Source of the DNA: Ureaplasma sp. Hg1
GTDB taxonomy: Bacteria > Bacillota_I > Bacilli_A > Mycoplasmatales > Mycoplasmoidaceae
Reading direction: 5' to 3'
Length of the DNA: 64,000 nt
NCBI GenBank assembly: GCA_021378535.1
Contig: JAACJV010000002.1
Coordinates: 27,876 to 91,875 of the forward strand
Part shown: in pieces, positions 25,501 to 59,236 of the stretch
Layout: every line of letters starts with the position of its first letter
Numbering within the stretch: position 1 is the stretch's first letter
The notes under the pieces: generated by a model
Databases searched by the model: none
What the model saw: the letters and a program-made list of their open reading frames with translations, nothing else
Told to the model about the DNA's origin: nothing
Position numbers and translations under genes: made by a program

Positions 25501-26407
25501 ATTTAATTAACTCTGGCTTAAAATCCTTAAATTTTCTATTTTTTATCATTTCAATTTCCTCGCCATAAGGAGCTATTGAAATCTTTTTTTCTATATCTTT
25601 AACAATTCACGGTGTTTCTAAAATTTTAACGATACCATCAAATTTAGGATGATATATCCACTTTATTAGAGCCTCATACCCAATATGTCCATAACCTATA
25701 TTTTCATGGCGGTCTTTATGGGCTCCAATTGGATTTTTAGAATCATTAATATGAAATAATTTGATTTGTTCTAGACCTATAATTCGATCAAACTTTTCTA
25801 TTACATCATCTATTTCATTCATATCATAACCAGCATCACTAGCGTGACAAGTATCAAAACAAACGCCTATATTATGTTTTTTATCCACACCATCTATAAT
25901 TATTTTTAATTCTTCAAACGTAACACCAACTTCCGAACCTTTTCCAGACATCGTTTCTAGGCAAATAACAACGTTTGTGTCCATTGAGTTAAGTACTTTA
26001 TTTAAACCGTATATAACTTGATCTAAACCTGTAGTTAGAGATTGATCTAAACGGCTTCCAGGATGAAGCACAATATATTTGGCACCCAAATCTTCTGCCC
26101 GTCTAATTTCTTTACCTAAAAATTCAATACCTAATTGACGAATGCTAGGCTTAGCTGAACACAGATTAATAATGTACGGTGCATGAATGATTACATTTGC
26201 AATTGGAATATTATGTTGTTTTAATAAATCATGAGCTTCATTTATTTTAAATATCTCAGTTGGTTTACGCATTGTATTTTGTGGCGCTCCGGTATAAACC
26301 ATTAAAGCGTTAGCGTTATAACTTAACGCCTCTTTAACACTTCCTAAAAAGTAATCTTTTGCTTTTAAACTAACATGACTACCTATATACAATTTATATT
26401 TATTCAT
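25499..26407 (-). CDS. nfo: endonuclease IV (deoxyribonuclease IV)
   Basis: Motifs include HAPYIINL, VLHPG, LETMSGKG, CFDTCH and HINDS. The track ORF end at 25607 is a TGA (ETPW...), and reading on gives ...APYGEEIEMIKNRKF...ELIK with TAA at 25501-25499. Confidence 0.9.
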
Positions 26408-26409
26408 AG

Positions 26410-27414
26410 TTATTTCTCCATTTTTTTAAGTTCTATTTGAATGTCTTTAAAAACATTAATAATTAATTTAGAGGGATCGCCCTCTTGATATAAAACATTA
26501 TACAAATTTACCAATAATGGTGCATTCAATTTATTTCTAACTATTATATCGTAAGCAATTTTAACATTCTTATAACCCTCGACTGTTTGTGTTTTCCCTT
26601 TTTCTAACGCTGTTTTAACTCCAAATTTTGAAACTTGTTGTCCAAAACTATAGTTTCTAGATTGGCTATCAGTGCAAGTTAAAAAAATATCGCCGATTCC
26701 ACAATATTGAAGTAGTGATGCTTGTTTTCCGCCCAAAATTGAAACTATATCAGAAATTTCTCGTGCGCCTTGTGCTAAGATTGCTGATAGTGTGTTGATT
26801 GATGGGTGGAATGTTTTCATCATACCTGTTGCAATAGCTAAACAATTTTTAAGTGCTGCGCTCAATTCAGCGCCAATTTCATCGTTAAGTGGTACAGCTA
26901 AAAAATAATCATTATTAAATATTAATGAAGTTAGATGTGCAATTTTTATATCGCTACTAACAACATTTACAATGGTTGCTTGCTTATGAAAAACTTCATA
27001 AGCAAAACTTGGCCCTATTAAAGTAACATATCCTCTTAATTTTAAATTACTTTTAAAGGTTTTGGATCAAACATTTTCACTCTCTGGATCTAGTCCTTTA
27101 GCAACATTAATTATAATTACATTCTCCGAAATTAAAGTCTTCATTTTATCAATCATTTGATTAATAAATTCTGTCGGGATAGCTATAATAATATATTCGC
27201 TACCGGTCATCGCGTCTTCAAGACTTGATGTTAGTTTTGTTATTGGATAGGAAAGTTTAACGTTACCGTAGCATTTTCTATTATACATTTGCTTTAAATC
27301 TGCAATTTGTTTATCATCAACACCGTACATAGTAACATTATGATGATTGGATAAAAGCACTTGAGATAGAGCTGTTCCTCAAGCGCCTGTACCAATAATT
27401 AGTATTTTTGCCAT
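26410..27414 (-). CDS. gpsA: NAD(P)H-dependent glycerol-3-phosphate dehydrogenase
   Basis: Starts [20 protein letters not shown]. ORFs 26410 and 27067 are in frame with ATG 27414-27412. NCLAIATGM and the C-terminal domain motifs are present. Confidence 0.9.
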
Positions 27415-28745
27415 TATTTATTGCCACCTCTTATACGAGAGTTTTTATCTTTTCAAAATAATGTTATGGGAACTTTATCTAAACCAAATACTTCCCTAAT
27501 TCTATTTTCAACATATCGACCATAACTAAAGTGTAAATATTTCGGGTTATTAACAAAAATAACAAACGTAGGTATTTGGCTTTTAACTTGTGTCGCATAC
27601 GAAATATTTAATCTCCCACCTTTAAATCCAGGAGGTTGTTGCATCATTTGAGCTTTTAAAATTGTCTCATTTAATAATGATGTTGAAATTTTTCTATTTA
27701 ATTGTTCTTCAATAGCATTCAATGTCTCAAAAATAGTGTGAACTCTTTTATTATCATAAGCGCTAATAAAAACAAGTGGTGCCCAAGCTAAATATTTAAA
27801 TTTGCTCCGTATCATTTTAGTAAATTGATTCATAGTACTATTATCTTTTTTCACTAAATCTCATTTATTGACTACAATAACGGTTGGAATGTTTGCACCA
27901 TAAGCTAAACCACCGATAATTTCGTCTTGTTCAGTAAAAGGCTGAGATCCATCAATCATTACAAGTATAACCTTGCTCCTACGAATAGCACCTTCAGCTC
28001 TAATTACTGAGTATTTCTCAACTTGCTCCTTAATTTTACCTTTTCTTCTAATACCCGCTGTATCAATTATTGTATATTGTCTATTTTGGTATTTAAAATC
28101 ACTGTCAATAGAATCTCGAGTAGTACCTGCAATTTCACTTACAATAACACGCTCCTCACGTAGGATTGTATTTGTTAATGAAGATTTACCTACATTAGGT
28201 TTACCAATTATACAAAATTTAAAAGTGTCATCTCTACTATGCTCAGGTTCGGGTGGCAATTTACCTACTATTTCATCTAATAAATCCCCTACACCAATAC
28301 CGTGTTCAGCTGACAATAAAAATGGTTTACCAAAACCTAGTTGATAAAATTGATTCATTTTTTCATTTGCTTTATTTGATTCAGCCTTATTAACAACTAG
28401 AATAATTTGTTTAGTTTTAGCGTGTTGCTTCAATATTTTTGCAACATATTCGTCATCAAGATTAATTCCATCTTTGTATGAAACTATAAATATTATTACT
28501 TGTGATTCATCGATTGCAAAGTCTACTTGCATTTCAATATTTGTCTTAAAAGTTTCCTCTTTTAATGTTAACCCACCTGTGTCGATTAATTCAAATCGTC
28601 GTGTTAATCACTCTGCATCGCCATAAATACGATCTCTAGTTACACCTGGTTGATCATCAACAATAGATTTTCTTTTTTTTATGATTCTATTGAATAGTGT
28701 AGATTTACCGACATTCGGTTTTCCAACGATTGCTATTGTTCTCAT
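27414..28745 (-). CDS. der: ribosome-associated GTPase Der (EngA), two tandem GTPase domains
   Basis: [19 protein letters not shown]...DTGG and a second [14 protein letters not shown]...DTAG. The track end at 27453 is TGA. The true TAA at 27416-27414 overlaps the gpsA ATG (TAATG). Confidence 0.9.
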
Positions 28746-28810
28746 AATATTGATTTCCTCACATAAATAAATTAGTGCCTATATTATAGAACAATTTTCT
28801 CATTAGAGTG

Positions 28811-29161
28811 TTACTTATTTCATAAATATGAAATGAATTCTTTAATCGCTTTATTTCTCTTCAAATAATAGTTTGAAACACTGCAATTCATTTCATCGAT
28901 AGTTTTCCTGTCAATAAAACAACCTTTTAAAAATTGTGAATTTATTTTATTCATACTTTTTAAAATGTCTTCTGTAAGTTTAATATATCCTTTCATTTCA
29001 TCAATTTTAGAAAATCAAGCTTTCGCTCCGCCTATTTCTGTTTCACCGTATGTTTCATAGTGTTTCACTCTAAAATCATATAAAGAATAAAGTCTAAAAT
29101 ATTCATTCACTCAAACTAGAATTTCTTTTTTGGTATTTGGCTTTATTGTAATTAAATCCAT
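28811..29161 (-). CDS. small (116 aa) protein with a C-terminal sigma-70 region-4 / ArpU-like helix-turn-helix
   Basis: Hand translation gives MDLITIKPNTKKEILVWVNEY...FLKGCFIDRKTIDEMNCSVSNYYLKRNKAIKEFISYLWNK. There are three in-frame TGA codons, so it is absent from the track. The RBS is weak. Confidence 0.4.
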
Positions 29162-29307
29162 TTTGTTTCTCTTTTCCAAGTGATGTACTAACAATTTCTA
29201 ATTTAACATAAATTAAAATAAAAAGCAAATATTTATATATACACGAAATCCCTTTTAATACTTAAAAGAAATTAATACTTTTTCAATTAAATAATTAAGT
29301 TATAGGT

Positions 29308-30420
29308 ATGAAGACAGAAAAAAGATCATCTGAGATAACTTTTTTACCTTGTATGATAATTTTGATAATTATTTTATATGTATTGAAATATAAAAATTAT
29401 TATCTACTAATTATCCTAATTGGTGGTTTTTGCTATTTAATTTTTAATCACACTTCATTGAAATATTATTTACTTTTAGTAACTCTTATCTTATTTTTCA
29501 CATTGATATATTATTTTTTACCACCTCTAATTAACGGTAATGAAATGGTTTCATTTTTAAATAATAAATTATTTAATATAAGATTAGCGACAATGGATTG
29601 AATAGATGATGGCTATAATGATTCTTTGACGTCAGGTACAATCGAGTTAATAGTGTTTAATTATCATACAGATGCTACTTACGATTTTTATCATAAAATA
29701 ATTGATTTATCCGTAGTTTATCTTTTTGTAGTTAGTGGGTTTCACATTAGTATGCTTAATAAATTAATGAAAAAAATAATTAAAAATAAAAAATTATTCA
29801 TTTTTATTAGCTTTACATTACTGTTGTTTTACTGTTACTTATTAAATTTTTCAGTTGGAGCTTTAAGAAGTTATTTTATGTTATTAATAGCATGAATTAG
29901 TAATTCAAACTGAAATTGAAAATCTAAATGAAAAAAACTTAATAATTACGATATTCTGGGTGGTAGCGCTCTACTAGTGATGTTATGATCCTTTCAAAGC
30001 ATTTATAGCGTAGGCTTTCAATTAAGCTTTTTATGTACTTTGTTTATTATTTTATTAAACGAATTAGAAATACATAATAAATTATTTAAAGGGATTTTAA
30101 TAAATCTTATTTGTTTAATCATAAGTTTTCCCATCGTTATAAGCATGAATAATAAAGTCAATGTTTTAGCCATTATCAACGGTTTTATATTTAGTTATGT
30201 TATTATTTTAATATTCATATGATTCATTCTCACATTCTGAATTATTTGAATTGCGCCAGTCCAAGTTTTTGTTACAGATTTTTTACATATTTTAATTAAT
30301 TTACAGTACAATATTCCTTCCTATATATACATTGATGAATTTAATATAGTCATCACTACATTATATTATGGTTTAGCATTTGGATGGGGTGCAACTATTT
30401 TACATAAAAAAGTTAATTAA
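29308..30420 (+). CDS. comEC: ComEC/Rec2-family competence-type membrane channel protein (short form, 370 aa)
   Basis: ORFs 29308, 29626 and 30040 are in one frame, joined by TGA. The motif DLSVVYLFVVSGFHISML matches the HLLAISGLH core of the Competence domain. It is a multi-pass membrane protein. Confidence 0.6.
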
Positions 30421-30454
30421 TTATGATATATTTAATTAATTAAAAGAGGTTAAA

Positions 30455-30730
30455 ATGAAGCAAAATAAAGACCAAATTATTCTACAAGAAGAAGTTAATC
30501 AAAATAGTTCTCAAAAAAATAATGAAAAAATAGCAGATTCAACCACAAAGAGATTTGGAATTATTCGAAAACAAGATATAGTTAACGATATTACTTCAGC
30601 TAATTTATTAGAAAAAAATAGTTCAACAATTAAACGCTACATCATAGCAAGCGTTCTAATTTTTATTGTTGTATTAGCCATTATCGGAACTGTATTTTTA
30701 ATTTTAATGGCTTTAAATAAAACTCAATAA
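30455..30730 (+). CDS. tail-anchored small membrane protein, 91 aa
   Basis: AAGAGGT RBS is present, with a C-terminal TM helix IIASVLIFIVVLAIIGTVFLILMAL. A hairpin terminator at 30766-30795 follows. Confidence 0.5.
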   Translation: MKQNKDQIILQEEVNQNSSQKNNEKIADSTTKRFGIIRKQDIVNDITSANLLEKNSSTIKRYIIASVLIFIVVLAIIGTVFLILMALNKTQ

Positions 30731-30845
30731 AAATATTAATTTAATATAATTCTTATAAATTTTTAAAGGTGCACTAAAAAATGTGTACCTTTTTTAACAC
30801 TTTCTCTTGTTAAATATTTATTATTTAAGTATTATTAAGTAGTGA

Positions 30846-30873
30846 CAAGTGTTAAAAAGTGGAGGAAAGTGGT
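30846..30873 (+). promoter_or_regulatory. putative MraZ operator: three direct AAGTG(T/G) repeats with 10-bp spacing
   Basis: AAGTGT at 30847, AAGTGG at 30857 and AAGTGG at 30867, plus an extra AGTG at 30841. They lie immediately upstream of the mraZ ATG. Confidence 0.5.
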
Positions 30874-30879
30874 GAACTT

Positions 30880-31311
30880 ATGTTTTTAGGAACTTATTCA
30901 AATAATCTAGATGTAAAAAATCGTTTAGCATTACCAAAAAAAATTGCAGTAATGTTAAGTGAAACCGTTGTAGTAAGCAAGGGTTTTGATGGATGTTTAG
31001 AATTAAGAACATATGACTCTTTCCAGACTTATTCAAACAAATTAATGAACTTATCACAGAATAAGAAAAACACTAGAATTATTCAACGACAATTATTAGC
31101 TAATGCAACAATGATTGATGTTGATGCTAACAATCGAATTCTTCTGCCATCCAATCTTTTAAAAGAAGCAAAAATTACAAAAAGTTTAGTTTTAATTGGG
31201 GTTGGTACAAAATTAGAAATTTGAGATAGTGAACAATATAGAGTTTTTAAAGATTCGACAGACTCGACTTTTGAAAAATTAGCAGAAGATCTTGAAGATG
31301 AAAATTTCTAA
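30880..31311 (+). CDS. mraZ: transcriptional regulator MraZ
   Basis: MFLGTYSNNLDVKNRLALPKK... and a second DANNRILLP motif, giving the duplicated SpoVT/AbrB-like DxxxR motifs. One TGA occurs and the TAA stop is at 31309-31311. Confidence 0.9.
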
Positions 31312-32227
31312 TAGTCATTACAGCGTGATGGCTAAGGAAATGATAACTAATTTAGATGTTAAGGGAAATGGTGTGTATATAGATTGCACAATGGGTCGCG
31401 GCGGACATACAAATTTGATTTTGGAAAAATTAAATTCTGAAGGAAAAATTGTAGCTATCGATCAGGATGAAGATGCGATTAATTATTGCACCAACAAATT
31501 CAAGGAGTTTTCTAATGTGAAAATAATTAGAGGAAATTTTAAGAATTTAAAATCAATTGTAAACGATTTGAACATAGAATGTGTAGATGGTATTATTTTT
31601 GATTTGGGTGTAAGTAGTCCGCAACTAGATAATGACGAAAGAGGGTTTAGTTATCGTCATAATGGTCCGTTGGACATGCGGATGGATCAATCTCAAAAAT
31701 TAGATGCTAAAACAATTATTAATAATTATAATAGTAAGGAATTGCATTATATTTTTAAACGCTATGGGGATATTAAAAATCCAAATTCAGTAATTAAAAA
31801 TATTATCGAGGCTCGAAATATTAATCCAATTAATAATACAATGGAACTAGTTGAAATTATTAAGAGATCTGTTCCAACTAGACTCCTTTACACAGCAAAG
31901 CATCCAGCTCGTGTTTATTTTCAAGCAATTCGAATTGCTGTTAATAATGAAATTGATATTTTAGAAAATGTAATCATTGATGCAAGCAAATTACTAAAAC
32001 AAAATGGGAAAATAATTATGATTAGCTTTCACTCGTTAGAAGATAAAGTAATAAAAAAAACATTTACTAAATTAGCTACCAACCACATTCCTAGAGAAGT
32101 TCCAACAATGGAACAAACAACTGCATTTTCAATCGTTACCAAACGACCTGTTCTTCCAAATTGTAATGAACTAAATGAAAATAATCGCAGTCGCTCTAGC
32201 AAATTAAGAATTTTAATTAAAAACTAG
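31298..32227 (+). CDS. rsmH: 16S rRNA (cytosine1402-N4)-methyltransferase
   Basis: HYSVMAKEM...YIDCTMGRGGHT...FDLGVSSPQLD...FHSLEDK motifs. It overlaps the mraZ 3' end by 14 nt. Confidence 0.9.
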   Translation: MKISNSHYSVMAKEMITNLDVKGNGVYIDCTMGRGGHTNLILEKLNSEGKIVAIDQDEDAINYCTNKFKEFSNVKIIRGNFKNLKSIVNDLNIECVDGIIFDLGVSSPQLDNDERGFSYRHNGPLDMRMDQSQKLDAKTIINNYNSKELHYIFKRYGDIKNPNSVIKNIIEARNINPINNTMELVEIIKRSVPTRLLYTAKHPARVYFQAIRIAVNNEIDILENVIIDASKLLKQNGKIIMISFHSLEDKVIKKTFTKLATNHIPREVPTMEQTTAFSIVTKRPVLPNCNELNENNRSRSSKLRILIKN

Positions 32228-32241
32228 ATAAGAGGTATAAT

Positions 32242-33504
32242 ATGATTCAACAAAACAATAGACATTTTGCAGTTTTAAATATTAATGATAAGTCTACTCA
32301 ATTATATATGGGTAAATTTAATTCTGACCAAAAGGTTATTCCTCTTTTTATGAGTAGTTATAATAACAATGGAGCTGTTACAAATTCTGTGATAACAGAT
32401 AAAATAAAGCTGATAGGAAATATTAAAAAATTATTTTTAGAAGCAGAAGAATTTATCGGAAAACCTATTAAATCTATTATTTTATCTATTGATTTTAAAA
32501 AATTCACAATTAAGGATTTTGAAATCAAGAATTACAATATAGAAGATTTGGAATTAGATTTACCTAAATGAAATAAATTAATTGATAGTATAGATTTTAA
32601 ATACGATCATAAACAATATGTTCAATTAGGTTCTGAAATATATAGATTTTTTGTAGACGGTGAAGAACAAACTATTTTTAATAAATCAATTCGTGGAAAA
32701 AAATTAGATTTAAATGGGAAAATATATCTAGTAAATAGTGTATTAGCAAAACCATTTATAGAGTTAATAGAAGCAGAAGGAATAAATATTTTAGACGTTA
32801 ATATTAGTCAAGTTGAATTTTTGAAACAATTTGAAATTAAATTACAAGATCAACATAAAATATTGATTCATGTAAAAAAAGATGGAATGCAATTAGGTTG
32901 ATATTTTAATAATGTATTATTACATAACGATATTTCGAATCGAATGTCAATTAATGATTTTATTGATAAGTTATCTAAGTTACTACAAATTGAAAATAAA
33001 AAATTATGACAATATTTTAATAATAGTCATTTCTTGTATAAGGGTAAATACAATGAAACTGTTGTTAATATATTTGATAAAAAATATCTATCAATTAAAC
33101 GGATTAAGCAAAGTGAGCTTGATAAGGCAATAGATAAATATTTGCTAGAGTTGCAAGATGAAGTGGAAACCTTTGTCAAATATATAGAAAAAGAAACAAA
33201 TGCTGAAATTAGTGAAGTGAAAATTATAAGTGATTATGAAGTAATTTTAAAAGCATTCATATACCTTCCAATTATGAGGGACTGAAAGGTCGATATAGTG
33301 GCAGGTAATGAACAATGTTTGAATATAGCTAAATATATGGATGCTGTGTCTTCCATTCACAATGCGAATTTAAAACTTAAGGGTATTTCAGATATTAGTG
33401 CAACTAGATTGTTGCCGATTTATACTGAGAATGAAAAGAATAAAATTCAATCAAAAATAAACAAATTTAGTAAAAAACATTCACAATTAGTAGCTAATAA
33501 TTAA
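32242..33504 (+). CDS. ftsA: divergent FtsA-like cell-division protein (420 aa)
   Basis: ORFs 32242, 33034 and 33298 are in one frame, and I read the gap codon by codon. The assignment rests mainly on conserved mraZ-rsmH-X-ftsZ synteny in Mollicutes, because the sequence itself is very diverged. Confidence 0.5.
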
Positions 33505-33535
33505 CATTTCCAATTTTAGGGTATAGGTAAAAACA

Positions 33536-35284
33536 ATGGGTAAAAATAATATTAAAAATCTTATCAACACTTTCAATTTTGAAACAGATATTGATATTTC
33601 GCCTATACATAAGGTTAAAGAGAACATAGAAGGTCAAAAAGTTTGCGCACTTAGTAAACCAACACATACAGTTACCAGAGAACTGAAAACAATTAAAACA
33701 GGTAATAATGGTGATGATATAAAAATTGTAACGATACCTTTATCTGTTGATAATAATGCTAAAAAATTCTCTAAAATAAATAAAGAGTGAGATAAAGAGA
33801 GTTTTGAGGAAGACAATGTCAATGCCGATGTTGACTCACAAAGAACAATATTCCAACAATATCAGCATGAAATGTATAAAGATAGAGGGAACAATATGGC
33901 ATTTGTAACCAAGGATGAGGAATCTAAGATCGAAGAAAAATGAAATAGTTTATGGGACAATGATTGAGATAGAACGGTTAATATTAAAGTATTGGGCGTT
34001 GGCGGTGCAGGCAATAATATGGTGCACCATATGGCAAAAACAAATGCCTTACCAAAAGGTGTTGAATTATATGCTATAAATACTGATATTCAAGCTCTTA
34101 AAATTTTAGAAAAAATTGATAATAAAGTACTAATTGGTAAGAAATTAACCAAAGGTTTTGGGTCAGGAAGTGATCCTGAAGTTGGAAAAAATGCGGCTCT
34201 TGAAGATATTGCTGCAATAAAAAATAAAATTTTAAAAGGAACTGACTTATTATTTATTACTGCCGGTATGGGCAAAGGTACAGGTACAGGAGCTTCGCCA
34301 GAAATTGCTAAAATAGCTCGTGAAATGGGAATTCTTACAATTGCCATTGTTAATTTACCATCAATTAAAACTGAAGGTGAAAAAATGTATAAGAAGGCTT
34401 TAGGCGGCTTAGAAAATTTGACAGAAAACGTTGATGCTATTACTACGATTAGCAATGATAAAATTATAGCTCAAACTCTACAAAATGAAAATCTAAGTTG
34501 TATGGAAGCATACACTAAAGCCGATCAATTAATTTTTGAATCTGTTGGAGAAATTTCTAATATGGTTTTAGTGCCATCAAAAATAAATGTAGATTTTGCT
34601 GATGTTAAAACATTTTTTAAAACTCCGGGTCATTTCCAAACAGGTTATATTAATTTGATGGATATGGATAATTTAAAGCCTGCTATTGAAAAATGTTTTG
34701 CTGAAACTTTGTACGAAGAAAGTATGTATGGAGCAACTAAGGCTATTATTAATTATCGTTTAAATGAAACAATTCCAATATCAATATTATCAGCTACTAA
34801 AGATGTTTTTAAAGAAATGACTCAAAATGATGATATCGAAATAATTCATAGTTTAGATTATAAAAAGGATATTAAATGTGCGGAATTAAGTTTTGTCATT
34901 GCAACAAATAATCATTCAGATATTGAAACACTGAACATGGATAACAAGATTATCATGGGATCAAAAAAATCTCATTATGTTAGCTCAAAAAAAGATGAAA
35001 AAAATATTTCAATTAAATCACAAAATGTTAATTTGTCAGGGATTGAAACAAACAATTTCTTGAATGTAGAACCTAACATTAGTGCATACCGTAACAATAC
35101 AAGTGCTATGGATGATGAAGATGTATCTCTAGACATCAATCTAAAAGATAACACCATTGGAAACTCAACACAATTAAATGATTGTATTAGCAAAACACTT
35201 AAGCAAGCTACGCAACAATCAAGTCATAATAACCTTGAAATTTCTAAACGACGGTTTAAGGGAATAATGAAGAAAAATAATTAG
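33536..35284 (+). CDS. ftsZ: cell-division GTPase FtsZ with long N- and C-terminal extensions (582 aa)
   Basis: Core motifs are IKVLGVGGAGNNMV, TAGMGKGTGTGASP and NVDFADV. ORFs 33536 and 33992 are in one frame and I verified the 120 upstream codons as open. An alternative start at ATG 33896 has an AGAGGG RBS. Confidence 0.85.
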
Positions 35285-35360
35285 TAAAATTTAAATATTT
35301 TTTTATCAACAATATACTATTATTTAATTTATTTAGTACATATAAAATTATCACTGAGCA

Positions 35361-35408
35361 TCATTGCAAATGTAAACTATTTTTAAAAATAGTTTACATT
35401 TGCAATGA
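35361..35408. terminator. 48-bp perfect palindrome, probable ftsZ terminator
   Basis: TCATTGCAAATGTAAACTATTTTT / AAAAATAGTTTACATTTGCAATGA, followed by TTTT. Confidence 0.65.
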
Positions 35409-35677
35409 TTTTATTAATTTAGTGATATATCTTCAACTAAATTAATTTACAGTTATCCTCTAATGATTGTTATTCTGTTTTAAGGTAAAATGATAATATT
35501 AATTTTCTAAATATATTCATAAAATTATCATCAACAAGCAAGTAATGAACACATCTTAAAAATATTAAATAATAAATATTTTTAATTTAATATAATAACA
35601 AAAGTAATGCTTTCTACACATATATAAAAGTTAAAGGTTTATAATTAATATACTTAGATAAAACGGGAGAATAGTTT

Positions 35678-35887
35678 ATGCCAAAAAATATTTATTATGT
35701 TTCGCCACACGGTGAAAAAGGATGAAAAATAATGAAACAAAATGCTACTAAAGCATCATATGTTTTTGCCACAAAGGCAGAAGCTATGGAAAAAGCTCGA
35801 GAATTTTGCAAGACTCAAGAAGCGACTGTTATCGTAAAAGACCGTAACGGTAAACACCAAGAAACAATTAGATATAATAGTAAATAA
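35678..35887 (+). CDS. DUF2188-like small protein, 69 aa
   Basis: MPKNIYYVSPHGEKGWKIMKQNATKASYVFATKAEAMEKAREFCKTQEATVIVKDRNGKHQETI. GGGAGA RBS is present, with one TGA. Confidence 0.55.
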
Positions 35888-36196
35888 ATTATTATATTTA
35901 TAGAACTCCTAAGCTAATGTATTAAATTACAACGCTTGGGATTTTATTATTGATTTATAGCACTATTATTAATATTGATTCTAGTTAATAATACTATGGT
36001 TTACAAAAACCTTATACGTTTGAAAATAACAACTTTAATGGGTTTTCATTTTGCTCTTTTCAAACGTAATATATTTGTGTTAATATTTAGTTAGATATTT
36101 TATGAAATTATTTCATACTTAAATTTTTTAAGATTATCATGAAATTGATTTTTAACTAAGATATACGTTTATAACGAAAAAGATTTGGAGTGAGAT

Positions 36197-38609
<2,413 letters not shown>

Positions 38610-38618
38610 AGGTTAAAT

Positions 38619-39416
38619 ATGTCAAACGATACTACTAAATTCAATGCCAGACAAGATATTTTGGCGAATGATTGATATAATATTTTAAATGTCGAAACTA
38701 CCAGTTCTGGAATGCAGATAACTGAATCTTATAGACATTTAGCAAAAATGTATCACCCAGATTTAAATAAGGAGTCGGATGCAATATATAAATTTCATTT
38801 AATTAATGAAGCATATCAAATTTTAGGTAACGAAGAGAATCGAGCAATGTACGATTGAGAAATGGGCATTTCTTCTAAATTAGATGCATTTAGATTTAAC
38901 ATTACATCAGACATAGAGGAAATTTTTGAAATTTCCAATGAGCTTTTAGAAAACCAAATTACTGATCCTACCGTTATCTATCGGGAAATTTGAATAAATA
39001 TAAAATCTATAGCTGAAAGAAATCATGTTTACACTCAACTTAAACGCAAATTAGATATAATAGCATCATTAGATTTAAAACTACAAGAATTTAATGAAGG
39101 CACAAGAATATCGGTCCCAATCGATCGTTATCGTATTTGTTCTGTTTGTAGGGGTAGTAGTCACATTGGTGTTGAAAGATTGCAAAAATGTTACCATTGC
39201 CAAGGTTTTGGATTAGAACACGAAAGAATTTTTGCAAATATTAAAGTTCTACCAAATACTCCAACCGATAAAACAATAAAAATACCTGGTAGGGGAAATA
39301 AAACACCAATTGGAACTGGAGATTTAATTATAAAGTTACACTTAACATCTAAAATTAGCATGTGGCCAAGAGCTACAACAAGAATGATGAGAGCTAAATC
39401 CAAGAATAAAAAATAG
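38619..39416 (+). CDS. J-domain protein (DnaJ paralog with reduced zinc-finger region), 265 aa
   Basis: The J-domain has WYNILNV...YRHLAKMYHPDLNK...NEAYQILGNEENRAMYD (HPD motif). Only CSVCRGS and CYHCQGFG cysteine pairs remain. I verified the frame codon by codon from 38619 to 39180. Confidence 0.75.
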
Positions 39417-39432
39417 ATATAATTCATAAATA

Positions 39433-39459
39433 TTAGCACTCAAATGTTGACATTGCTAA
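39433..39459 (+). promoter_or_regulatory. CIRCE-like HrcA operator upstream of dnaJ
   Basis: TTAGCACTC-N9-CATTGCTAA compared with consensus TTAGCACTC-N9-GAGTGCTAA. The left arm is perfect and the right arm matches 7/9. Confidence 0.6.
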
Positions 39460-39528
39460 AATAAAATAGTAATATAAAATATATAAATTTGAAGATTTAT
39501 TTTTTTAATTAAGTAAAGGATGATAATT

Positions 39529-40704
39529 ATGCCACAAAAAAGAGATTATTATGAAGTCTTAGGGATATCAAAAAGTGCAAGTGCTGCTGAAATTAAACGT
39601 GCCTTTCGTAATTTAGCAATGCAATTTCATCCTGATCGTAATAAAAAAGAAGGCGCTGAGGAAAAATTTAAAGAAGTAAATGAGGCTTATGAAATACTAA
39701 GTGACCAAGAAAAAAAATCTATTTATGATAAATATGGACATGCGGGTTTAGAAGGACAAGGAATAAACTTTGATGGGTTTAATCCATTTGATATTTTTAA
39801 TCAATTCTTTGGAGGCAATAATAGTAATACGCAAAGTTCATCATTCGGCGGATTTGAGGATATTTTTGGTAGTTTTTTTAGTAACGGGCCACAACAATCA
39901 AATTTTGACAATAGAGCACATAAGGAATCATTAGATATTCATATTCCAATATCAATATCTTTTATTGAAGCTCTTAACGGGACGGAAAAAAAAGTATCTT
40001 TTGATAGACGAGTTGTTTGCGATAATTGCGAAGGATCAGGAGCCGAATCGAAGGACGATATAATTCAATGTAGCGGATGTCAAGGCCATGGTGTTGTTAT
40101 TACTCAAAAACGCACAATATTAGGAATGATGCAAAGTCAATCTATTTGTCCTAATTGTTCAGGTACAGGTAAATCTATTAAAAACAAATGCAAAAGTTGT
40201 TCAGGTAAAGGCTATAATATTAGTGAAGTAACTATTAAAGCGACCATACCAGCAGGTGTTGAACATCGAGAAAATTTAATCGTGAGCAATAAAGGGCACA
40301 AGAATAAAAGCGATAATGGAAATTTATATTTAATTATAAATGTTAATCCAAGTAAATTCTTTGAACGACACGGGTTAGATATTTATACATACTTATATGT
40401 TGACCCTTTAAAAGCATTAGTTGGCGGCGAAGTAGAAATTGTAACACCATATGGCGTTGAAAAATACGAACTTATGCCGGGAACAAAACATGATCAAAAA
40501 ATAATCATTCATGGGCGTGGTGTCAAAACAGATAAGAAACGTGTGTTAGGTGGTAATTTATCAGGTAATTTAGTTTGTGTAGTTAGATATTCTGAATCTA
40601 ACAAGTACACAAAATCAGAAATTTCAATAATAAAAAAATTGGCTGAAAAATCTAATAAATATACAGAAAAACATAATGCTGAAGTTTTAAAAGAGGTGAG
40701 ATAA
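39529..40704 (+). CDS. dnaJ: molecular chaperone DnaJ
   Basis: [33 protein letters not shown] is followed by a G/F-rich region and four CxxCxGxG zinc-finger repeats. AAAGGA RBS lies 8 nt before ATG 39529. Confidence 0.9.
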
Positions 40705-41735
40705 TGAATTCAGGTAGAATAGATTTAAAAAAATTACATGGTAATGTAGTAACGTCATCCGATTCTAAGGGTACAACTAAATTAGAAGAAATTGAACCAG
40801 GAAGTGGAATTTATAAAAAAGTAGGAAAACGTAAAAATATTCCAACTAGAGCCTTTCGTGCGGATGAATTAGATGAAACAAGCGATAAGCAGAAGAGCCA
40901 TCTTAGTGGAGGCACTAGTAAGTTAAATACAAAAACGAAAAAACTTACAACTAAAATAGATCCAATAAACGAAAAAACTAACATAATAGAAAATTTTGAT
41001 GATAAAACAAAACAGATTATTGGATTGGACGATGAAGTTATTGTACAAAAATCAACACACAATAGAAGAAGAGCATCCACTAGTTCAAGTATAGCTGTTG
41101 CTAAAAATTCAAGCAACAAAAAATCTGCAAATAGAAAAAAAGGTGTGAAAAATCCAGATGATGATATTACATCACAAGATTATGAAATCGCATACGACAT
41201 TCTTCAAAAGAAATATGATACATTAGATTTAAAACTGCAAAATACAATTAATGAAAATATTAAATTAAATGCTGAAGTAAATAAAATAAGAGGACAATTA
41301 ATTAATAAAATTCAAGAGAAAACTAAAGAAGCTAAACTTATTATTGATGCTAAATTAAAAGAAAATGAAGCAAAATTTCAATCAGAAATAAAGCAAGCAA
41401 AAGAAGCTGCCTTAGAAACTGACATAATTAACTTCATTGATATAATTTTACATTTGGAAACAGCGATAGTTAAGTCTCCTGATAATATAGCAGTAAAAAA
41501 TTATGTCACGGGTTTTAATATGATATTAAATATGTTCTACAATCAATTAGGAACCATGGGGATTAGCCAAATAGATGTGAATGTTGGAGATGAATTTAAT
41601 GCAAATTATATGGAAGCTTTTGACACTGAAGAAAATCCTAAATTTAAAACAAATAAAATAATAGAAATTTATAAAAAAGGTTTTGTACTTAATGACAAGG
41701 TAATAAGACACACGTTAGTAAAGGTCGCAAAATAA
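40704..41735 (+). CDS. grpE: nucleotide exchange factor GrpE with ~190-aa Lys/Ser/Thr-rich N-terminal extension
   Basis: The ATG overlaps the dnaJ TAA (TAATG). The C-terminal part has a coiled coil plus ...GISQIDVNVGDEFNANYMEAF...VLNDKVIRHTLVKVAK, typical of GrpE. Confidence 0.8.
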   Translation: MNSGRIDLKKLHGNVVTSSDSKGTTKLEEIEPGSGIYKKVGKRKNIPTRAFRADELDETSDKQKSHLSGGTSKLNTKTKKLTTKIDPINEKTNIIENFDDKTKQIIGLDDEVIVQKSTHNRRRASTSSSIAVAKNSSNKKSANRKKGVKNPDDDITSQDYEIAYDILQKKYDTLDLKLQNTINENIKLNAEVNKIRGQLINKIQEKTKEAKLIIDAKLKENEAKFQSEIKQAKEAALETDIINFIDIILHLETAIVKSPDNIAVKNYVTGFNMILNMFYNQLGTMGISQIDVNVGDEFNANYMEAFDTEENPKFKTNKIIEIYKKGFVLNDKVIRHTLVKVAK

Positions 41736-41765
41736 TTAATTTTCAAATTATTTGGGTATTAATAT

Positions 41766-42575
41766 ATGGATAATAAAGTAACGGCAATTAGCTTATTTGT
41801 AAATCATACTAATTACATTGCAGAAGATATTTTAGATATAAATCAAATTCATAATGGATTTACAAATATTTCCTTTTTGATTATTACGAAAAATAAGCAA
41901 AAATTCCAAATAAGAATTGGCGGTAGTAATCATGTGGTTAATAGAAAAAATGAGGAAAGAGTTTTAAAAGCCATTCACAACGATACATTCATTTACTATG
42001 ATAATAAAAATGGTAATGCAATTAAGAAATGAATTGATGGAGTAAATCCCAAATTTGAAGAATTAGATGATGTATTTTTAGAGTCATTAGCTTTGGCCAT
42101 TCGTAATCTTCATAATACAAATATTAAAGACACAAACATAATCATGCACGATCCCTTTTGCTTTATTAATAAAGCTGTGATGGGAAATAATCATGTGACT
42201 ACTTATAGAAAATTATTAGATAAATATAGTTACCTACCATTAGTACTAAGTCATAATGATATCAACACTAGAAATTTAATTTATAATAATAATAAAGTTT
42301 TTTTAATAGATTTTGAATGGTCGAGAATAAATAATGAATATTGAGATTTAGCTAATTTTATAAGAGAAGAAAAACTTCCGATGGATAAAATTATTAAACT
42401 TTATAAATATTATGGAGGAATAGAATTGCCAATTTTAAAAGATTTTATTTATTTGACTACAAATTTCGCAGTTCAATGAACATATTGTATGACAGAAACT
42501 CCTAAAATATTGGACTACCGACAGAAACAATTAAAATTATTGGATTACTATTATGATTTACTTATTAACATATAA
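41766..42575 (+). CDS. choline/ethanolamine kinase-like phosphotransferase (APH/ChoK fold)
   Basis: GFTNISFLI, LVLSHNDINTRNLI (Brenner motif HxDxxxxN) and FLIDFEWS (DFE). ORFs 41766 and 42093 are in one frame, joined by TGA. Confidence 0.7.
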
Positions 42576-42678
42576 ATCAATCTTGTCTAATTTATTATAA
42601 ATATTTATTAAATACATTCCCATGGAAAAAGGAAATGTATTTAATTTTTATATATAGAAAACTAAAGTTTTTAACATT

Positions 42679-42906
42679 TTATTTTGTTTTAAAAGCTTTA
42701 GTTGAAATTACTGAGTTACTATCTTGTGGTATAAAATTATTAGTTTTCTTAGCTTGCTTCTTACTATTGCTAATATTTAATGAAGCAGTCACCGCACCAG
42801 AAATAAGACTAATTAAAACAGTAGCGCACGTAACTATCCCCCATATGATCCCTGGAGCCATCCCACCAACTATATTTTGTTTGCTATTTTGATCAAGTTG
42901 TTTCAT
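42679..42906 (-). CDS. double-glycine-leader peptide B (75 aa; predicted 15-aa leader plus 60-aa hydrophobic/cationic peptide)
   Basis: MKQLDQNSKQNIVGG | MAPGIIWGIVTCATVLISLISGAVTASLNISNSKKQAKK... The ATG overlaps the TAA of peptide A (TAATG). The stop is a true TAA, followed by a hairpin at ~42611-42650. Confidence 0.6.
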   Translation of the reverse strand: MKQLDQNSKQNIVGGMAPGIIWGIVTCATVLISLISGAVTASLNISNSKKQAKKTNNFIPQDSNSVISTKAFKTK

Positions 42907-43175
42907 TATGCAAAGGGAATTCCAAAATTTATTTTAGTATTATATCCATTAGGAGCGGCACGAATATATGTTTTGGGAGAAGTGTTTCTATACATATTAG
43001 GGCTAGAGAAAGCAGGGTTTGGGTTATTATAGTAAATGTTTTGGTTAACCAAATTTAAGACACCAATCATACTTCCTGAAATCATAGATAACCCAGCGGC
43101 TTTATTTCAAAAGAAATTTGATTTCATCGCCCCACCTGTGATATCTAGTTTAGATTCAATTTCTAATTTTTTCAT
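42906..43175 (-). CDS. double-glycine-leader peptide A (89 aa; predicted 15-aa leader plus 74-aa peptide)
   Basis: Hand translation gives MKKLEIESKLDITGG | AMKSNFFWNKAAGLSMISGSMIGVLNLVNQNIYYNNPNPAFSS...FGIPFA. A strong GGAGG RBS lies ~9 nt upstream. One TGA (Trp) explains its absence from the track. Confidence 0.6.
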
Positions 43176-43224
43176 TTTATTTACCTCCACTTATTACTAC
43201 TAAGATTTGTTTTATAAATCTTAA

Positions 43225-43701
43225 TTATTTTAAGTATTTAATTTCAATATTACTTATTTTATTTTTATCTATTCATAATATAATATATGTTTTAGTTAAA
43301 AAATTATTCCGGGGATAAGCAATTGATCCGGGATTTATTATTGTTACATCATTTATTTTATCAATAATTTCAATATGACTATGGCCATAAACAACTAGAT
43401 TAGCGTTATAATTTTCCGCATCATTATAAAGATTTTGATGTCATTTCTTTTTATTTCATGACACGTGGTTGTGACCATGTACCATGAAAACGATTACATC
43501 TTCAATTTTAAATATTTTTTCAGACTCACCGATATAATCATTATTTCCTGCAACATAAAAATCACAAACTTCATCCATATATTTTTTAGACGTTGTGTGA
43601 TCACCGGCATGAATGATTAAGTCTGGTTGTTCCAACATAATAATTTCTTCCAATATCTTATTTTTCCCATGCGAATCTGAAACCACAAGTACTTTTGTCA
43701 T
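43225..43701 (-). CDS. YfcE/MJ0936-family metallophosphoesterase, 158 aa
   Basis: MTKVLVVSDSHG...IHAGDH...GNND...VHGH...YGHSH motifs. GGGGAGA RBS is present. I read the tail codon by codon through four TGA codons to TAA 43227-43225. Confidence 0.8.
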
Positions 43702-59165: not shown

Positions 59166-59236
59166 ACTATATTTGTAACAAGCGAGTAATTATTGAATTA
59201 ATTGCGCTTGAATTAAATTGCGTAAGGAGTGTTAAA

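What the first reader, a model, noticed from the sequence alone, without database searches (positions are those of the whole stretch)
42679..43175. Translationally coupled pair of double-glycine-leader peptides with GxxxG helices: candidate two-peptide bacteriocin in a Mollicute
Two small minus-strand ORFs sit back to back, and the TAA of the first overlaps the ATG of the second (TAATG). The first has a strong GGAGG RBS ~9 nt upstream. It contains one TGA (Trp), which explains why it is missing from the ORF track.

Their first 15 residues align with 8/15 identities:
- A: MKKLEIESKLDITGG
- B: MKQLDQNSKQNIVGG

Both fit the double-glycine leader consensus of class II bacteriocins and competence pheromones, with Leu at -12, Ile at -4 and Gly-Gly at -2/-1.

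Immediately after the GG each peptide has a single hydrophobic helix rich in small-xxx-small motifs, followed by a polar tail:
- A: AAGLSMISGSMIGVL, including GSMIG, then an Asn/Pro/Tyr-rich tail.
- B: APGIIWGIVTCATVLISLISGAV, including GIIWG, then a Lys-rich cationic tail.

GxxxG helix-helix motifs, equimolar coupled expression and a shared leader are the defining features of class IIb two-peptide bacteriocins. The predicted mature sizes (74 and 60 aa) are larger than usual. A C39-peptidase ABC exporter able to process such leaders is encoded at 23119..25122. No dedicated immunity gene is evident next to the pair. The pair lies downstream of uvrC and a metallophosphoesterase on the same strand, preceded by an 8-bp stem hairpin at ~43201-43223. 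I know of no described GG-leader peptide system in mycoplasmas.
Basis: partly seen in the sequence, partly recalled or inferred. Interest (0 to 1): 0.85.

Follow-up and report, generated by a model that had tools for sequence, protein, structure and literature searches.

The report
Cleavable-leader small-protein pair in Ureaplasma
Two overlapping small genes in a Ureaplasma-type genome encode related peptides with a double-glycine-type leader. In sister genomes they sit in one operon with a leader-cutting C39 peptidase/ABC protein, so they are very likely its substrates, but they evolve like housekeeping genes and faintly resemble a mycoplasma recombination regulator (RrlA) rather than a typical bacteriocin.

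Summary
With genetic code 4, window 43175..42906 (-) encodes an 89-aa peptide A and 42906..42679 (-) a 75-aa peptide B. They share a TAATG stop/start overlap, a GGAGG ribosome-binding site and 15-residue leaders ending in Gly-Gly.

A and B are paralogs. Tandem A-type/B-type pairs occur in all 10 related loci fetched (Ureaplasma and uncultured Mycoplasmataceae). Gly at -1 is invariant in 23 sequences; -2 is G, A, S or Q.

In seven sister-clade loci the order is C39-peptidase protein, small membrane protein, A, B, on one strand and almost without gaps. In the window the same two upstream genes lie 18 kb away (23119..25462), separated by a rearrangement. This strongly supports "substrates of the C39 peptidase".

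The two-peptide-bacteriocin reading is not established:
- the mature parts are under strong purifying selection (omega 0.03-0.09);
- the locus is core-genome;
- GxxxG is not conserved;
- no immunity gene is evident.

Both paralogs weakly but specifically match the NCBIfam MPN313 (RrlA) model; the matches depend on the GG. In M. genitalium, RrlA and the C39 transporter MG_390 belong to the same sigma-20 recombination regulon.

Verdict: a new, conserved mollicute family of C39-peptidase cargo. Its end function is unknown.

The parts
42906..43175 (-). Peptide A precursor gene (89 aa, code 4, one TGA = Trp23). The leader is residues 1-15 (43175..43131), MKKLEIESKLDITGG. The predicted mature protein is 74 aa: an amphipathic helix followed by a conserved Asn/Pro/aromatic tail ending in FGxPF.
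   Evidence: Translation. The ortholog in Ureaplasma sp. Hg2 is 82% identical. The family of 85-92 aa proteins was found by an exhaustive profile search and aligned. dN/dS is 0.03 for the mature part and 0.8 for the leader. AlphaFold2 gives helices at 4-13 and 21-50 at low confidence.
42679..42906 (-). Peptide B precursor gene (75 aa). The leader is residues 1-15 (42906..42862), MKQLDQNSKQNIVGG. The predicted mature protein is 60 aa: one strongly hydrophobic helix followed by a Lys-rich tail (net charge +6).
   Evidence: ORF listing and translation. Hydropathy maximum 2.3. B-type partners directly follow A-type genes in all 10 related loci. Alignment. 7 of 9 B-type members match NF045747.
43184..43188 (-). 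GGAGG ribosome-binding site, 8 nt upstream of the ATG of A. B has no site of its own and starts on the stop codon of A (TAATG), which suggests translational coupling.
   Evidence: Sequence. The same GGAGG and TAATG occur in L001/L002. The 1-nt stop/start overlap is also seen in L002, L004, L006, L007, L008 and L009-L011; the gap is 6 nt or less in L003 and L005.
43199..43225 (-). Weak A/T hairpin (10-bp stem) between the metallophosphoesterase stop codon and A. It could be an attenuator or processing site. No independent conserved promoter was found.
   Evidence: Fold energy -6.4 kcal/mol, z -2.2. The -35-like TTGAAA lies in coding sequence and is not conserved in L001.
42610..42642 (-). 12-bp hairpin after B, between the convergent B and choline-kinase genes. 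It is the likely end of the transcription unit.
   Evidence: Fold energy -14.8 kcal/mol for the 71-nt stretch, z -3.4, 0 of 200 shuffles as stable. A G+C-rich hairpin sits at the same place in L001.
23119..25122 (+). Peptidase-containing ABC transporter (667 aa): C39 peptidase, transmembrane domain and an intact ATPase domain. It is the proposed processing and export enzyme for A and B.
   Evidence: Pfam Peptidase_C39 1.3e-21, ABC_membrane 1.4e-17, ABC_tran 8e-16. NCBIfam NF045998 'Mbov_0121 family peptidase domain-containing ABC transporter', 303 bits, below the 500-bit cutoff. Full-length match to S. pneumoniae ComA structures. Motifs. Positional orthologs sit directly upstream of the pair in sister genomes.
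25112..25462 (+). Small partner protein (116 aa, one N-terminal membrane helix) whose start overlaps the transporter stop by 11 nt. Its role is unknown: accessory factor or immunity-like protein.
   Evidence: Translation. Weak match to NF045999 MAG1140 family (E 0.008). The L005 counterpart matches the same family at E 3.5e-5 over its full length. A protein of 120-141 aa with the same architecture lies between the C39 protein and A in L004-L006 and L008-L011. Direct homology by hhalign is inconclusive (probability 18%).

Best explanation
A and B are a conserved, co-translated pair of paralogous precursor proteins.

Proposed mechanism:
1. The roughly 15-residue N-terminal leader of each is recognised and cut after an invariant Gly by the cytoplasmic C39 peptidase domain of the mycoplasma-type transporter at 23119..25122. 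The consensus is M-x-K-[LI]-x4-K-x2-hydrophobic-x-[GAS]-G.
2. That transporter works together with its small membrane partner at 25112..25462.
3. In this genome the transporter has an intact ATPase, so the products are then moved out of the cytoplasm. The products are a 74-aa cationic amphipathic protein and a 60-aa hydrophobic-helix protein with a Lys-rich tail, made in about 1:1 ratio by translational coupling. They end up in or at the membrane, or outside the cell, and act together there.

Status of each step:
- Shown by sequence: the genes, the coupling, the paralogy, the conserved leader, the operon linkage in sister genomes, and purifying selection.
- Inferred: cleavage, export and joint action.

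End function: I judge a conserved self-directed role more likely than antagonism. This means signalling, regulatory or membrane-associated, distantly related to RrlA of the M. genitalium sigma-20 circuit. Given processing, my estimates are about 45% for a self-directed role, about 30% for a bacteriocin-like role and about 25% for something else.
For: - Genes and motifs confirmed.
- Paralogy.
- An exhaustive HMM search of 1.84 billion proteins finds a small family of 72-92 aa proteins, including U. urealyticum and U. diversum proteins. A read-through fusion protein, P0033, shows the A-B tandem in U. urealyticum as well.
- All 7 loci from the genome scan carry A-type followed by B-type.
- In L004, L005, L006 and L008 the pair directly follows a C39-domain protein plus a 120-141 aa single-helix protein on the same strand (tblastn; ORFs).
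- Independent gene calls with precomputed Pfam give alaS, ruvX, Peptidase_C39 protein, 141 aa, 85 aa, 77 aa in L009-L011.
- The window's C39 protein and partner occupy the same position relative to the gpsA-der-MG284fam-ComEC-mraZ block, so they are positional orthologs. The pair plus choline kinase has been moved and inverted.
- Gly at -1 is invariant in 23 of 23 sequences. Position -2 is G, A, S or Q. Position 4 is L, I or M in most. Position -4 is hydrophobic in 9 of 9 B-types.
- Between the window and Ureaplasma sp. Hg2, the leader of A evolves almost neutrally except at anchor residues (omega 0.8; 7/15 identical), while its mature part is 66/74 identical (omega 0.03). This is what is expected of a removable targeting tag.
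- The C39 catalytic motifs are present in the window protein and in all sister-clade copies.
Against: - No experimental evidence of cleavage or export exists for any family member.
- The leader departs from the canonical double-glycine consensus. Position -7 is usually Lys (14 of 23) instead of hydrophobic, and -2, normally the most conserved Gly, is Ala, Ser or Gln in 11 of 23 sequences.
- No generic GG-leader model is matched.
- In the window, in Hg2 and in U. diversum the pair is not next to the transporter.
- In the sister clade the operon-linked C39 protein has lost every ATPase motif. ATP-driven export by that protein alone cannot be general, so only cleavage is a safe inference there.
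- In M. genitalium, deleting MG_390 barely changes sigma-20 activation (PMC6105099). This weakens the regulatory version.
Confidence: 0.7

Rival explanations
1. Class IIb-like two-peptide bacteriocin. After leader removal and export, the two cationic peptides insert together into the membranes of competing mycoplasmas and kill them. The small membrane protein next to the transporter would be the immunity or accessory factor.
For: - Two adjacent, translationally coupled genes with GG-type leaders.
- A cognate C39 transporter in the same operon in sister genomes.
- Both mature peptides are cationic (+6 each), one amphipathic and one hydrophobic.
- A small membrane protein is always encoded beside the transporter.
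- One B-type member gives a sub-threshold hit to TIGR03949, the lactobin A/cerein 7B family (E 0.023).
Against: - The TIGR03949-type hit is compositional. A chimera with a shuffled helix scores better (16.3 bits).
- GxxxG is not conserved in register.
- Mature peptides of 52-77 aa are about twice the class IIb size.
- Omega of 0.03-0.09, as low as a neighbouring housekeeping gene.
- The same chromosomal neighbourhood is kept across genus-level divergence, and within U. urealyticum all copies fall in one 90%-identity cluster. There is no sign of the strain-variable, diversifying, island-like behaviour usual for bacteriocin loci.
- In the sister clade the linked C39 protein has no ATPase.
- No multi-pass immunity protein is present.
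Confidence: 0.22
2. Ureaplasma counterparts of RrlA (and perhaps RrlB). These would be small proteins, matured by the C39 protein, that switch on or stabilise an ECF-like alternative sigma factor controlling recombination and DNA exchange. The circuit would resemble ComC/ComAB/ComX.
For: - Both window peptides have the NCBIfam MPN313 (= MG_220 = RrlA) model as their best hit. It is the only hit for B (E 1e-3 and 4e-4).
- 7 of 9 B-type and 5 of 13 A-type members hit it, against 0 of 27 architecture-preserving shuffles.
- All alignments start at position 1 of both protein and model.
- Changing GG to KK costs 7.6 bits in the Hg2 A ortholog (P0003) and abolishes the hits of window A and B. Deleting the leader abolishes all hits.
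- Leader-only and body-only chimeras both fail, so the similarity is spread along the protein.
- In M. genitalium, rrlA is the most strongly sigma-20-induced gene. The C39 transporter MG_390 and its neighbour MG_389 are in the same regulon. RrlA and RrlB are two small proteins that act together (PMC4446450, PMC6105099).
- A ComEC-like gene lies in the conserved neighbourhood.
Against: - Scores of 16-24 bits are far below the family cutoff of 100.
- I could not obtain real RrlA sequences, so there is no direct alignment.
- No sigma-20-type promoter (TTGKCA-N18/19-ATTWAT) lies upstream of the pair or of the transporter.
- Deleting MG_390 leaves the fraction of RecA-expressing cells unchanged and lowers recombination only about 10-fold.
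- RrlA is thought to act inside the cell.
- No sigma-20 ortholog was identified in the window.
Confidence: 0.2
3. Uncleaved small membrane proteins. The N-terminal 15 residues would form a permanent cytoplasmic amphipathic segment and the Gly-Gly a hinge before the membrane helix. Adjacency to the C39 protein would reflect some other functional tie, for example subunits or regulators of the transporter.
For: - B is a textbook single-pass helix flanked by Lys on both sides.
- The leader deviates from the canonical consensus at -7 and -2.
- The mature parts are conserved like structural proteins.
- The sister-clade C39 protein is not an active ATPase.
Against: - The C39 peptidase domain is the best-conserved part of the neighbouring protein even where the ATPase has decayed (65-87 bits). 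This argues that proteolysis is the selected activity.
- The leader of A evolves near-neutrally apart from its anchor residues, as a disposable tag would.
- A-type proteins have no convincing membrane helix.
Confidence: 0.1

Closest known systems
Class IIb two-peptide bacteriocins with their peptidase-containing ABC transporter (e.g. lactococcin G lagA/lagB/lagC/lagD; plantaricin EF and JK)
   Same: Two adjacent, co-expressed small genes. N-terminal leaders ending in Gly-Gly. A dedicated C39 peptidase ABC transporter and a small membrane protein in the same operon (in sister genomes). Cationic mature peptides with one helix each.
   Different: The mature peptides are 52-77 aa rather than about 25-45. 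GxxxG is not conserved. There is strong purifying selection and core-genome synteny instead of variable islands. No recognisable immunity gene is present. Leader position -7 is usually Lys. No class IIb model is matched beyond composition. The linked transporter is ATPase-dead in one clade.
RrlA (MG_220/MPN313) and RrlB with MG_390/MG_389 in the sigma-20 regulon of Mycoplasma genitalium (PMC4446450, PMC6105099)
   Same: Mollicute small proteins of about 90-100 aa that act as a pair. They are co-regulated with a C39 peptidase ABC transporter and its small neighbour. The A/B family gives weak, specific, GG-dependent matches to the MPN313 model, starting at residue 1.
   Different: Scores are far below family membership. 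rrlA and rrlB are at separate loci, not in tandem. No sigma-20-type promoter is present here. RrlA/B are described as intracellular sigma-stabilising proteins, and nobody has reported a leader or processing.
ComC/ComAB competence pheromone export in streptococci
   Same: A GG-leader precursor cut and exported by a C39 ABC transporter. The window transporter aligns full-length with ComA structures. This gives a possible link to a recombination or DNA-uptake programme.
   Different: ComC is a single short peptide (17-aa product) with allelic pherotypes. Here there are two long, highly conserved products with no sign of pherotype diversification. No two-component sensor was identified.
Colicin V (CvaC/CvaAB) and PCAT1-CtA, which are large cargos of peptidase-containing ABC transporters
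   Same: A 15-residue leader beginning with Met at -15 and Leu at -12 and ending in Gly-Gly (as I recall the ColV leader). The mature cargos are 70-90 aa, which shows such sizes are transportable.
   Different: Those cargos are single and unrelated in sequence. The mollicute transporter belongs to its own NCBIfam family (NF045998) and works in a wall-less cell.

Membership tests
Double-glycine-leader precursors (substrates of C39 peptidase ABC transporters) | Short N-terminal leader (about 15-30 aa) ending in Gly-Gly (or GA/GS), conserved among homologs | tested here: met
   Leaders are 13-16 aa. Gly at -1 is invariant in 23 of 23 family members. Position -2 is G (12), A (8), S (2) or Q (1) (two sites corrected by eye).
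Double-glycine-leader precursors (substrates of C39 peptidase ABC transporters) | Hydrophobic residues at -4, -7, -12 and -15 forming the face that binds the peptidase | tested here: inconclusive
   Met at -15 and L/I/M at -12 in most. Position -4 is hydrophobic in 9 of 9 B-types and about 9 of 14 A-types. Position -7 is Lys or Arg in most sequences instead of hydrophobic.
Double-glycine-leader precursors (substrates of C39 peptidase ABC transporters) | Cognate C39 peptidase with catalytic Cys/His encoded with the precursor genes | tested here: met
   The window transporter at 23119..25122 has Gln6/Cys12/His91/Asp106. C39 proteins lie directly upstream, on the same strand, in L004, L005, L006, L008 and L009-L011.
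Double-glycine-leader precursors (substrates of C39 peptidase ABC transporters) | Demonstrated cleavage after the Gly-Gly, and export | not testable with these tools
   Needs mass spectrometry or an in vitro peptidase assay.
Class IIb two-peptide bacteriocins | Two adjacent co-transcribed precursor genes with GG leaders | tested here: met
   TAATG overlap, a single ribosome-binding site, and a tandem arrangement conserved in all loci.
Class IIb two-peptide bacteriocins | Short (about 25-45 aa) mature peptides with conserved GxxxG helix-helix motifs, or a match to a known class IIb family model | tested here: not met
   Mature sizes are 52-77 aa. GxxxG is not in conserved columns. There are no Pfam or NCBIfam class II hits for A or B. 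The only TIGR03949 hits are sub-threshold, and a shuffled chimera reproduces them.
Class IIb two-peptide bacteriocins | Dedicated immunity gene in the locus | tested here: inconclusive
   There is no multi-pass or Abi-type gene next to the pair. The MAG1140-like single-helix protein beside the transporter is the only candidate.
Class IIb two-peptide bacteriocins | Antimicrobial activity that requires both peptides | not testable with these tools
   Needs synthetic or purified peptides and indicator strains.
NCBIfam NF045747, MPN313 (RrlA) family | Score at or above the curated cutoff (100 bits) | tested here: not met
   A scores 19.4 bits, B 20.6 and the Hg2 A ortholog (P0003) 23.8.
NCBIfam NF045747, MPN313 (RrlA) family | Sequence-specific similarity (distant relationship) beyond composition | tested here: met
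   7 of 9 B-type and 5 of 13 A-type members hit at E of 0.1 or less, against 0 of 27 segment-preserving shuffles. The hits depend on the GG and need both the leader and the following helix.
NCBIfam NF045747, MPN313 (RrlA) family | Sigma-20-type promoter (TTGKCA-N18/19-ATTWAT) upstream, as for rrlA and MG_390 | tested here: not met
   There is no match upstream of the pair or of the transporter. The single match in the window is at 59173..59202.
Peptidase-containing ABC transporters (for the gene at 23119..25122) | N-terminal C39 peptidase with catalytic residues, a six-helix ABC exporter domain, and an ATPase domain with Walker A, signature and Walker B motifs | tested here: met
   Three Pfam domains. 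GPSGSGKS at 501, LSSGQ at 592, IILLDE at 612. Best NCBIfam hit is NF045998 at 303 bits, below its 500-bit equivalog cutoff.

The most novel reading that the evidence does not exclude
The A/B pair and M. genitalium RrlA would belong to one mollicute-wide class of small proteins matured by a C39 peptidase, which gate an ECF-like alternative sigma factor (sigma-20) that drives recombination and horizontal DNA transfer. Mollicutes would then have a peptide-based, ComC/ComAB/ComX-like circuit. RrlA would be a substrate of MG_390. The unknown trigger of sigma-20 would be leader cleavage and/or export of these proteins.
Probability: 0.2. Interest if true: 0.85.

Novelty: new variant of a known kind. 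Interest (0 to 1): 0.62.

Why it matters
Peptidase-containing ABC transporters are retained even in near-minimal mycoplasma genomes, yet I found no report of their substrates. This locus provides the first concrete candidate cargo: a conserved pair that is in the same operon as the peptidase in several genomes.

It also makes three questions directly testable:
- What these transporters are for in wall-less bacteria.
- Whether mycoplasmas make peptide weapons or signals.
- Whether RrlA, the small protein required to activate the sigma-20 recombination and antigenic-variation programme of M. genitalium, is a processed GG-leader protein.

The ATPase-dead but peptidase-intact transporter homologs in the sister clade are an unusual natural variant. 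They separate cleavage from ATP-driven export.

Tried and rejected
- Word-indexed homology searches with A, B and a 14-sequence profile found only self, the Hg2 orthologs and three relatives. The exhaustive profile search was needed to find the family. Its high-scoring long hits (P0004, P0012 and others) are unrelated repeat proteins carrying 'KLDLSGG'-type repeats.
- Real RrlA/MG_220/MPN313 sequences could not be fetched. The RrlA link therefore rests on indirect probing of the NCBIfam model.
- The sigma-20 promoter search found nothing at the pair or at the transporter. The generic promoter scan was no better than shuffles, and the terminator scan missed the A/T-rich hairpins.
- AlphaFold2 of A gave pLDDT 51. 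I ran no fold search because matches would be meaningless.
- The C39 domain alone gave no PDB hit by phmmer. The full-length protein did.
- Homology between the window's small partner protein and the sister-clade ones is not shown directly (hhalign probability 18%). It is only suggested through NF045999.
- Considered and rejected: type IV prepilin-like signals (no Glu at +5, and the linked peptidase is C39 rather than a prepilin peptidase); Sec or lipoprotein signal peptides (a 15-residue polar n-region, a 25-residue helix, and an 'IVTC' that is not a lipobox and is not conserved); chance ORFs (purifying selection).
- Look-ups of the window's own contig failed. The organism is therefore inferred only as a Ureaplasma species related to 'Ureaplasma sp. 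Hg2'.
Full report
**1. What is in the sequence**

The window has 28% G+C and uses TGA as Trp. On the minus strand, 43175..42906 encodes an 89-aa protein A: MKKLEIESKLDITGG-AMKSNFFWNKAAGLSMISGSMIGVLNLVNQNIYYNNPNPAFSSPNMYRNTSPKTYIRAAPNGYNTKINFGIPFA. Next, 42906..42679 encodes a 75-aa protein B: MKQLDQNSKQNIVGG-MAPGIIWGIVTCATVLISLISGAVTASLNISNSKKQAKKTNNFIPQDSNSVISTKAFKTK.

The TAA of A and the ATG of B share one base. A GGAGG lies 8 nt before the ATG of A, and A contains one TGA codon (Trp23). These are the only ORFs in the window that fit M-x2-[LIVMF]-x7-[LIVM]-x-GG; shuffled sequence gives 0.03 such ORFs per window.

**2. The two peptides are paralogs and real genes**

BLASTP of A against B gives 35% identity over 48 residues (E 2e-5). 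Profiles of the two types align with 96% probability (E 4e-9) over the leader and the following helix.

I compared the window with the ortholog pair in 'Ureaplasma sp. Hg2' (L001/L002, with the same gene order from uvrC to grpE). The results are:
- Mature A is 66/74 identical (omega about 0.03), the same as the neighbouring metallophosphoesterase.
- Mature B has omega of about 0.09.
- The leader of A is only 7/15 identical (omega about 0.8) but keeps M1, K3, L4, K9, I12, G14 and G15.
- dS is saturated, so these ratios are rough.

**3. The family**

Pfam has nothing. Word-indexed searches found almost nothing. An exhaustive profile search of 1.84 billion representative proteins found a small family of 72-92 aa proteins. 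It includes hypothetical proteins of Ureaplasma urealyticum and U. diversum.

A 181-aa read-through product in U. urealyticum is A-type fused to B-type, so the tandem exists there too. A scan of one genome per species returned seven loci: Ureaplasma sp. Hg2, U. diversum, three uncultured Ureaplasma and two uncultured Mycoplasmataceae. Every one has an A-type gene followed at once by a B-type gene, usually with the same one-base stop/start overlap.

Across 23 sequences, Gly at -1 is invariant. Position -2 is G (12), A (8), S (2) or Q (1). Position 4 is L, I or M in most sequences. Position -7 is Lys in 14 of 23 (Lys or Arg in 15). Position -4 is hydrophobic in all B-types and most A-types.

The mature A-type part carries strongly conserved motifs: W-N, G-Q-S, L-x-L-x-N-Q-x-x-Y-x-N-N-P-N-P, and F-G-S-P-[YF] at the C-terminus.

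**4. The link to the C39 peptidase transporter**

The ORF at 23119..25122 is a complete peptidase-containing ABC transporter. The evidence:
- Pfam Peptidase_C39, ABC_membrane and ABC_tran domains.
- Gln6/Cys12/His91/Asp106.
- GPSGSGKS, LSSGQ and IILLDE motifs.
- A full-length match to ComA structures.
- A best NCBIfam match to the mycoplasma-specific NF045998 'Mbov_0121 family' (303 bits, below its 500-bit cutoff).

A 116-aa single-helix protein overlaps its end (25112..25462) and weakly matches the neighbouring NCBIfam family NF045999.

The decisive result is comparative. In L004, L005, L006 and L008 a homolog of this protein and a 120-141 aa single-helix protein lie directly upstream of A and B, on the same strand, with overlaps or gaps of about 10 nt. 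Independent gene calls on three more contigs give alaS, ruvX, Peptidase_C39 protein, 141 aa, 85 aa and 77 aa, then a convergent choline kinase.

In those genomes the block is followed by gpsA, der, an MG284-family gene, a ComEC-like gene, mraZ and mraW. In the window the transporter and its partner sit just before nfo followed by that same gpsA-to-mraW block. Choline kinase, B and A lie 18 kb away in inverted orientation next to uvrC. The window therefore shows a rearranged version of a four-gene unit. This is strong association evidence that A and B are the substrates of the C39 peptidase.

**5. An unexpected twist**

The operon-linked homologs in the sister clade (629-640 aa) keep an excellent C39 domain (65-87 bits) with the QxxxNECG, HYV and YDP motifs. 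They still align end to end with NF045998 (about 142 bits). However, they have no Walker A (a 5-residue deletion), no signature motif, no Walker B and no H-loop. Pfam detects neither ABC domain in them.

Leader cleavage is therefore the activity that selection has preserved everywhere. ATP-driven export by this protein is plausible in the window genome but cannot be general, unless a partner supplies the ATPase.

**6. The link to RrlA**

The best NCBIfam hit of both window peptides, and the only hit of B, is NF045747, 'MPN313 family' (E 1e-3 and 4e-4, 19-21 bits, cutoff 100). MPN313 is the M. pneumoniae homolog of M. genitalium MG_220, later named rrlA.

Published findings on this system (PMC4446450 and PMC6105099):
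- rrlA is the gene most strongly induced by the ECF-like sigma factor sigma-20 (MG428).
- rrlA and a second small protein, RrlB, are both needed to stabilise sigma-20 and to activate recombination.
- The C39 transporter MG_390 ('sunT, peptide secretion') and its neighbour MG_389 are in the same regulon.
- Deleting MG_390 lowers recombination about 10-fold but does not change the fraction of RecA-expressing cells.

I tested whether the weak HMM match is meaningful:
- 7 of 9 B-type and 5 of 13 A-type proteins hit the model.
- None of 27 shuffles that preserve leader, helix and tail composition hits it.
- Every alignment starts at residue 1 of both protein and model.
- Changing GG to KK costs 7.6 bits in the Hg2 A ortholog (P0003) and removes the hits of window A and B. 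Deleting the leader removes all hits.
- Chimeras with only the leader native, or only the body native, fail. Truncating or shuffling the tail of B costs 4-6 bits.

The similarity is therefore sequence-specific, spread over the leader and helix, and implies that the MPN313 model favours Gly at the aligned positions. This is indirect. I could not retrieve RrlA sequences, the scores are far below membership, and no sigma-20-type promoter is present here.

**7. Interpretation**

The best-supported explanation (confidence about 0.7) is that A and B are co-translated precursor proteins. Their leaders are removed by the C39 domain of the mollicute-type transporter. In this genome they are then exported or delivered to the membrane, where the two cationic products act together.

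What they do afterwards is open. The bacteriocin reading (about 0.22 overall) fits the architecture. It does not fit the strong conservation, the core-genome synteny, the size, the lack of conserved GxxxG, the lack of an immunity gene or the ATPase-dead transporters. The only class IIb model hits are compositional.

The regulatory or signalling reading tied to RrlA and sigma-20 (about 0.2) fits the HMM evidence and the M. genitalium co-regulation. It is weakened by the mild MG_390 deletion phenotype. An uncleaved membrane-protein reading (about 0.1) is hard to reconcile with the preserved peptidase domain and the fast-evolving leader of A.

**8. Novelty**

GG-leader cargo and peptidase-containing ABC transporters are well known. 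The mollicute transporter and its partner already have NCBIfam models. I found no paper describing their cargo or any GG-leader peptide in Mollicutes.

The A/B family has no Pfam or NCBIfam model. Its distinctive features are:
- a leader usually carrying Lys at -7, with a variable -2;
- long, conserved mature domains;
- a conserved tandem of paralogs;
- ATPase-less transporter homologs in one clade.

I class it as a new variant of a known kind, of moderate to high interest, because it gives a concrete experimental handle on mollicute C39 transporters and possibly on the sigma-20 recombination switch.

Noticed in passing
L004:7659-9581, L005:7709-9598, L006:7741-9633, L008:3982-5874, L009:5661-7580: The transporter homologs directly upstream of the peptide pair in the sister clade keep a strong C39 peptidase domain and align end to end with NF045998. 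They have lost Walker A, the signature motif, Walker B and the H-loop, and Pfam detects no ABC domains. They are natural peptidase-intact, ATPase-dead variants.
   Followed up: partly
window 23119..43175 compared with L006:7741-17557 and L009:5661-15472: A rearrangement separates the pair from its transporter. Sister genomes have C39 protein, partner, A, B, then convergent choline kinase, then gpsA, der, an MG284-family gene, ComEC-like and mraZ. The window has C39 protein, partner, nfo, then the gpsA-to-mraZ block and further genes up to grpE, and then choline kinase (+), B (-) and A (-) next to the metallophosphoesterase and uvrC.
   Followed up: partly
window 28811..29161 (-) and 29308..30420 (+): An MG284/MPN403-family small protein (NF045770, E 2e-10) and a ComEC/Rec2-like membrane protein (NF045979/TIGR00360) lie in the conserved neighbourhood of the transporter locus. 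In M. genitalium the neighbours MG_285/MG_286 are sigma-20-regulated, and ComEC (MG_316) carries a candidate sigma-20 promoter.
   Followed up: no
window 59173..59202 (+): The only match in the window to the M. genitalium sigma-20 promoter consensus (TTGTAA-N18-ATTAAT) lies 35 nt upstream of the 400-aa ORF at 59237..60439. It may be chance.
   Followed up: no
proteins P0021, P0022, P0025, P0028, P0033 (Ureaplasma urealyticum): The B-type gene of U. urealyticum is annotated with three different starts (88, 74 and 61 aa). The shorter ones cut off the leader. One assembly has a 181-aa A-B read-through fusion. Public annotation of this family is therefore inconsistent.
   Followed up: partly
protein P0004 (2640 aa) and P0012, P0014, P0016, P0017: Long repeat proteins score well against the A/B profile only because of repeated 'KLDLSGG(V/I)MTG'-type units (20 stretches in P0004). 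They are unrelated false positives, worth knowing about when mining for GG leaders.
   Followed up: yes
window 14545..17916 (-) inside 14105..18688 (+): A 1123-aa stop-free antisense ORF lies inside the 1527-aa plus-strand gene, which begins like an ABC ATPase. Shorter antisense ORFs occur within other long genes. They are probably a by-product of code 4 and composition.
   Followed up: no
window 42635..42937 (+): A 100-aa ORF runs antisense across peptide B and the 3' end of A. Given the purifying selection on the minus-strand frames and the homologs found, it is most likely spurious.
   Followed up: no
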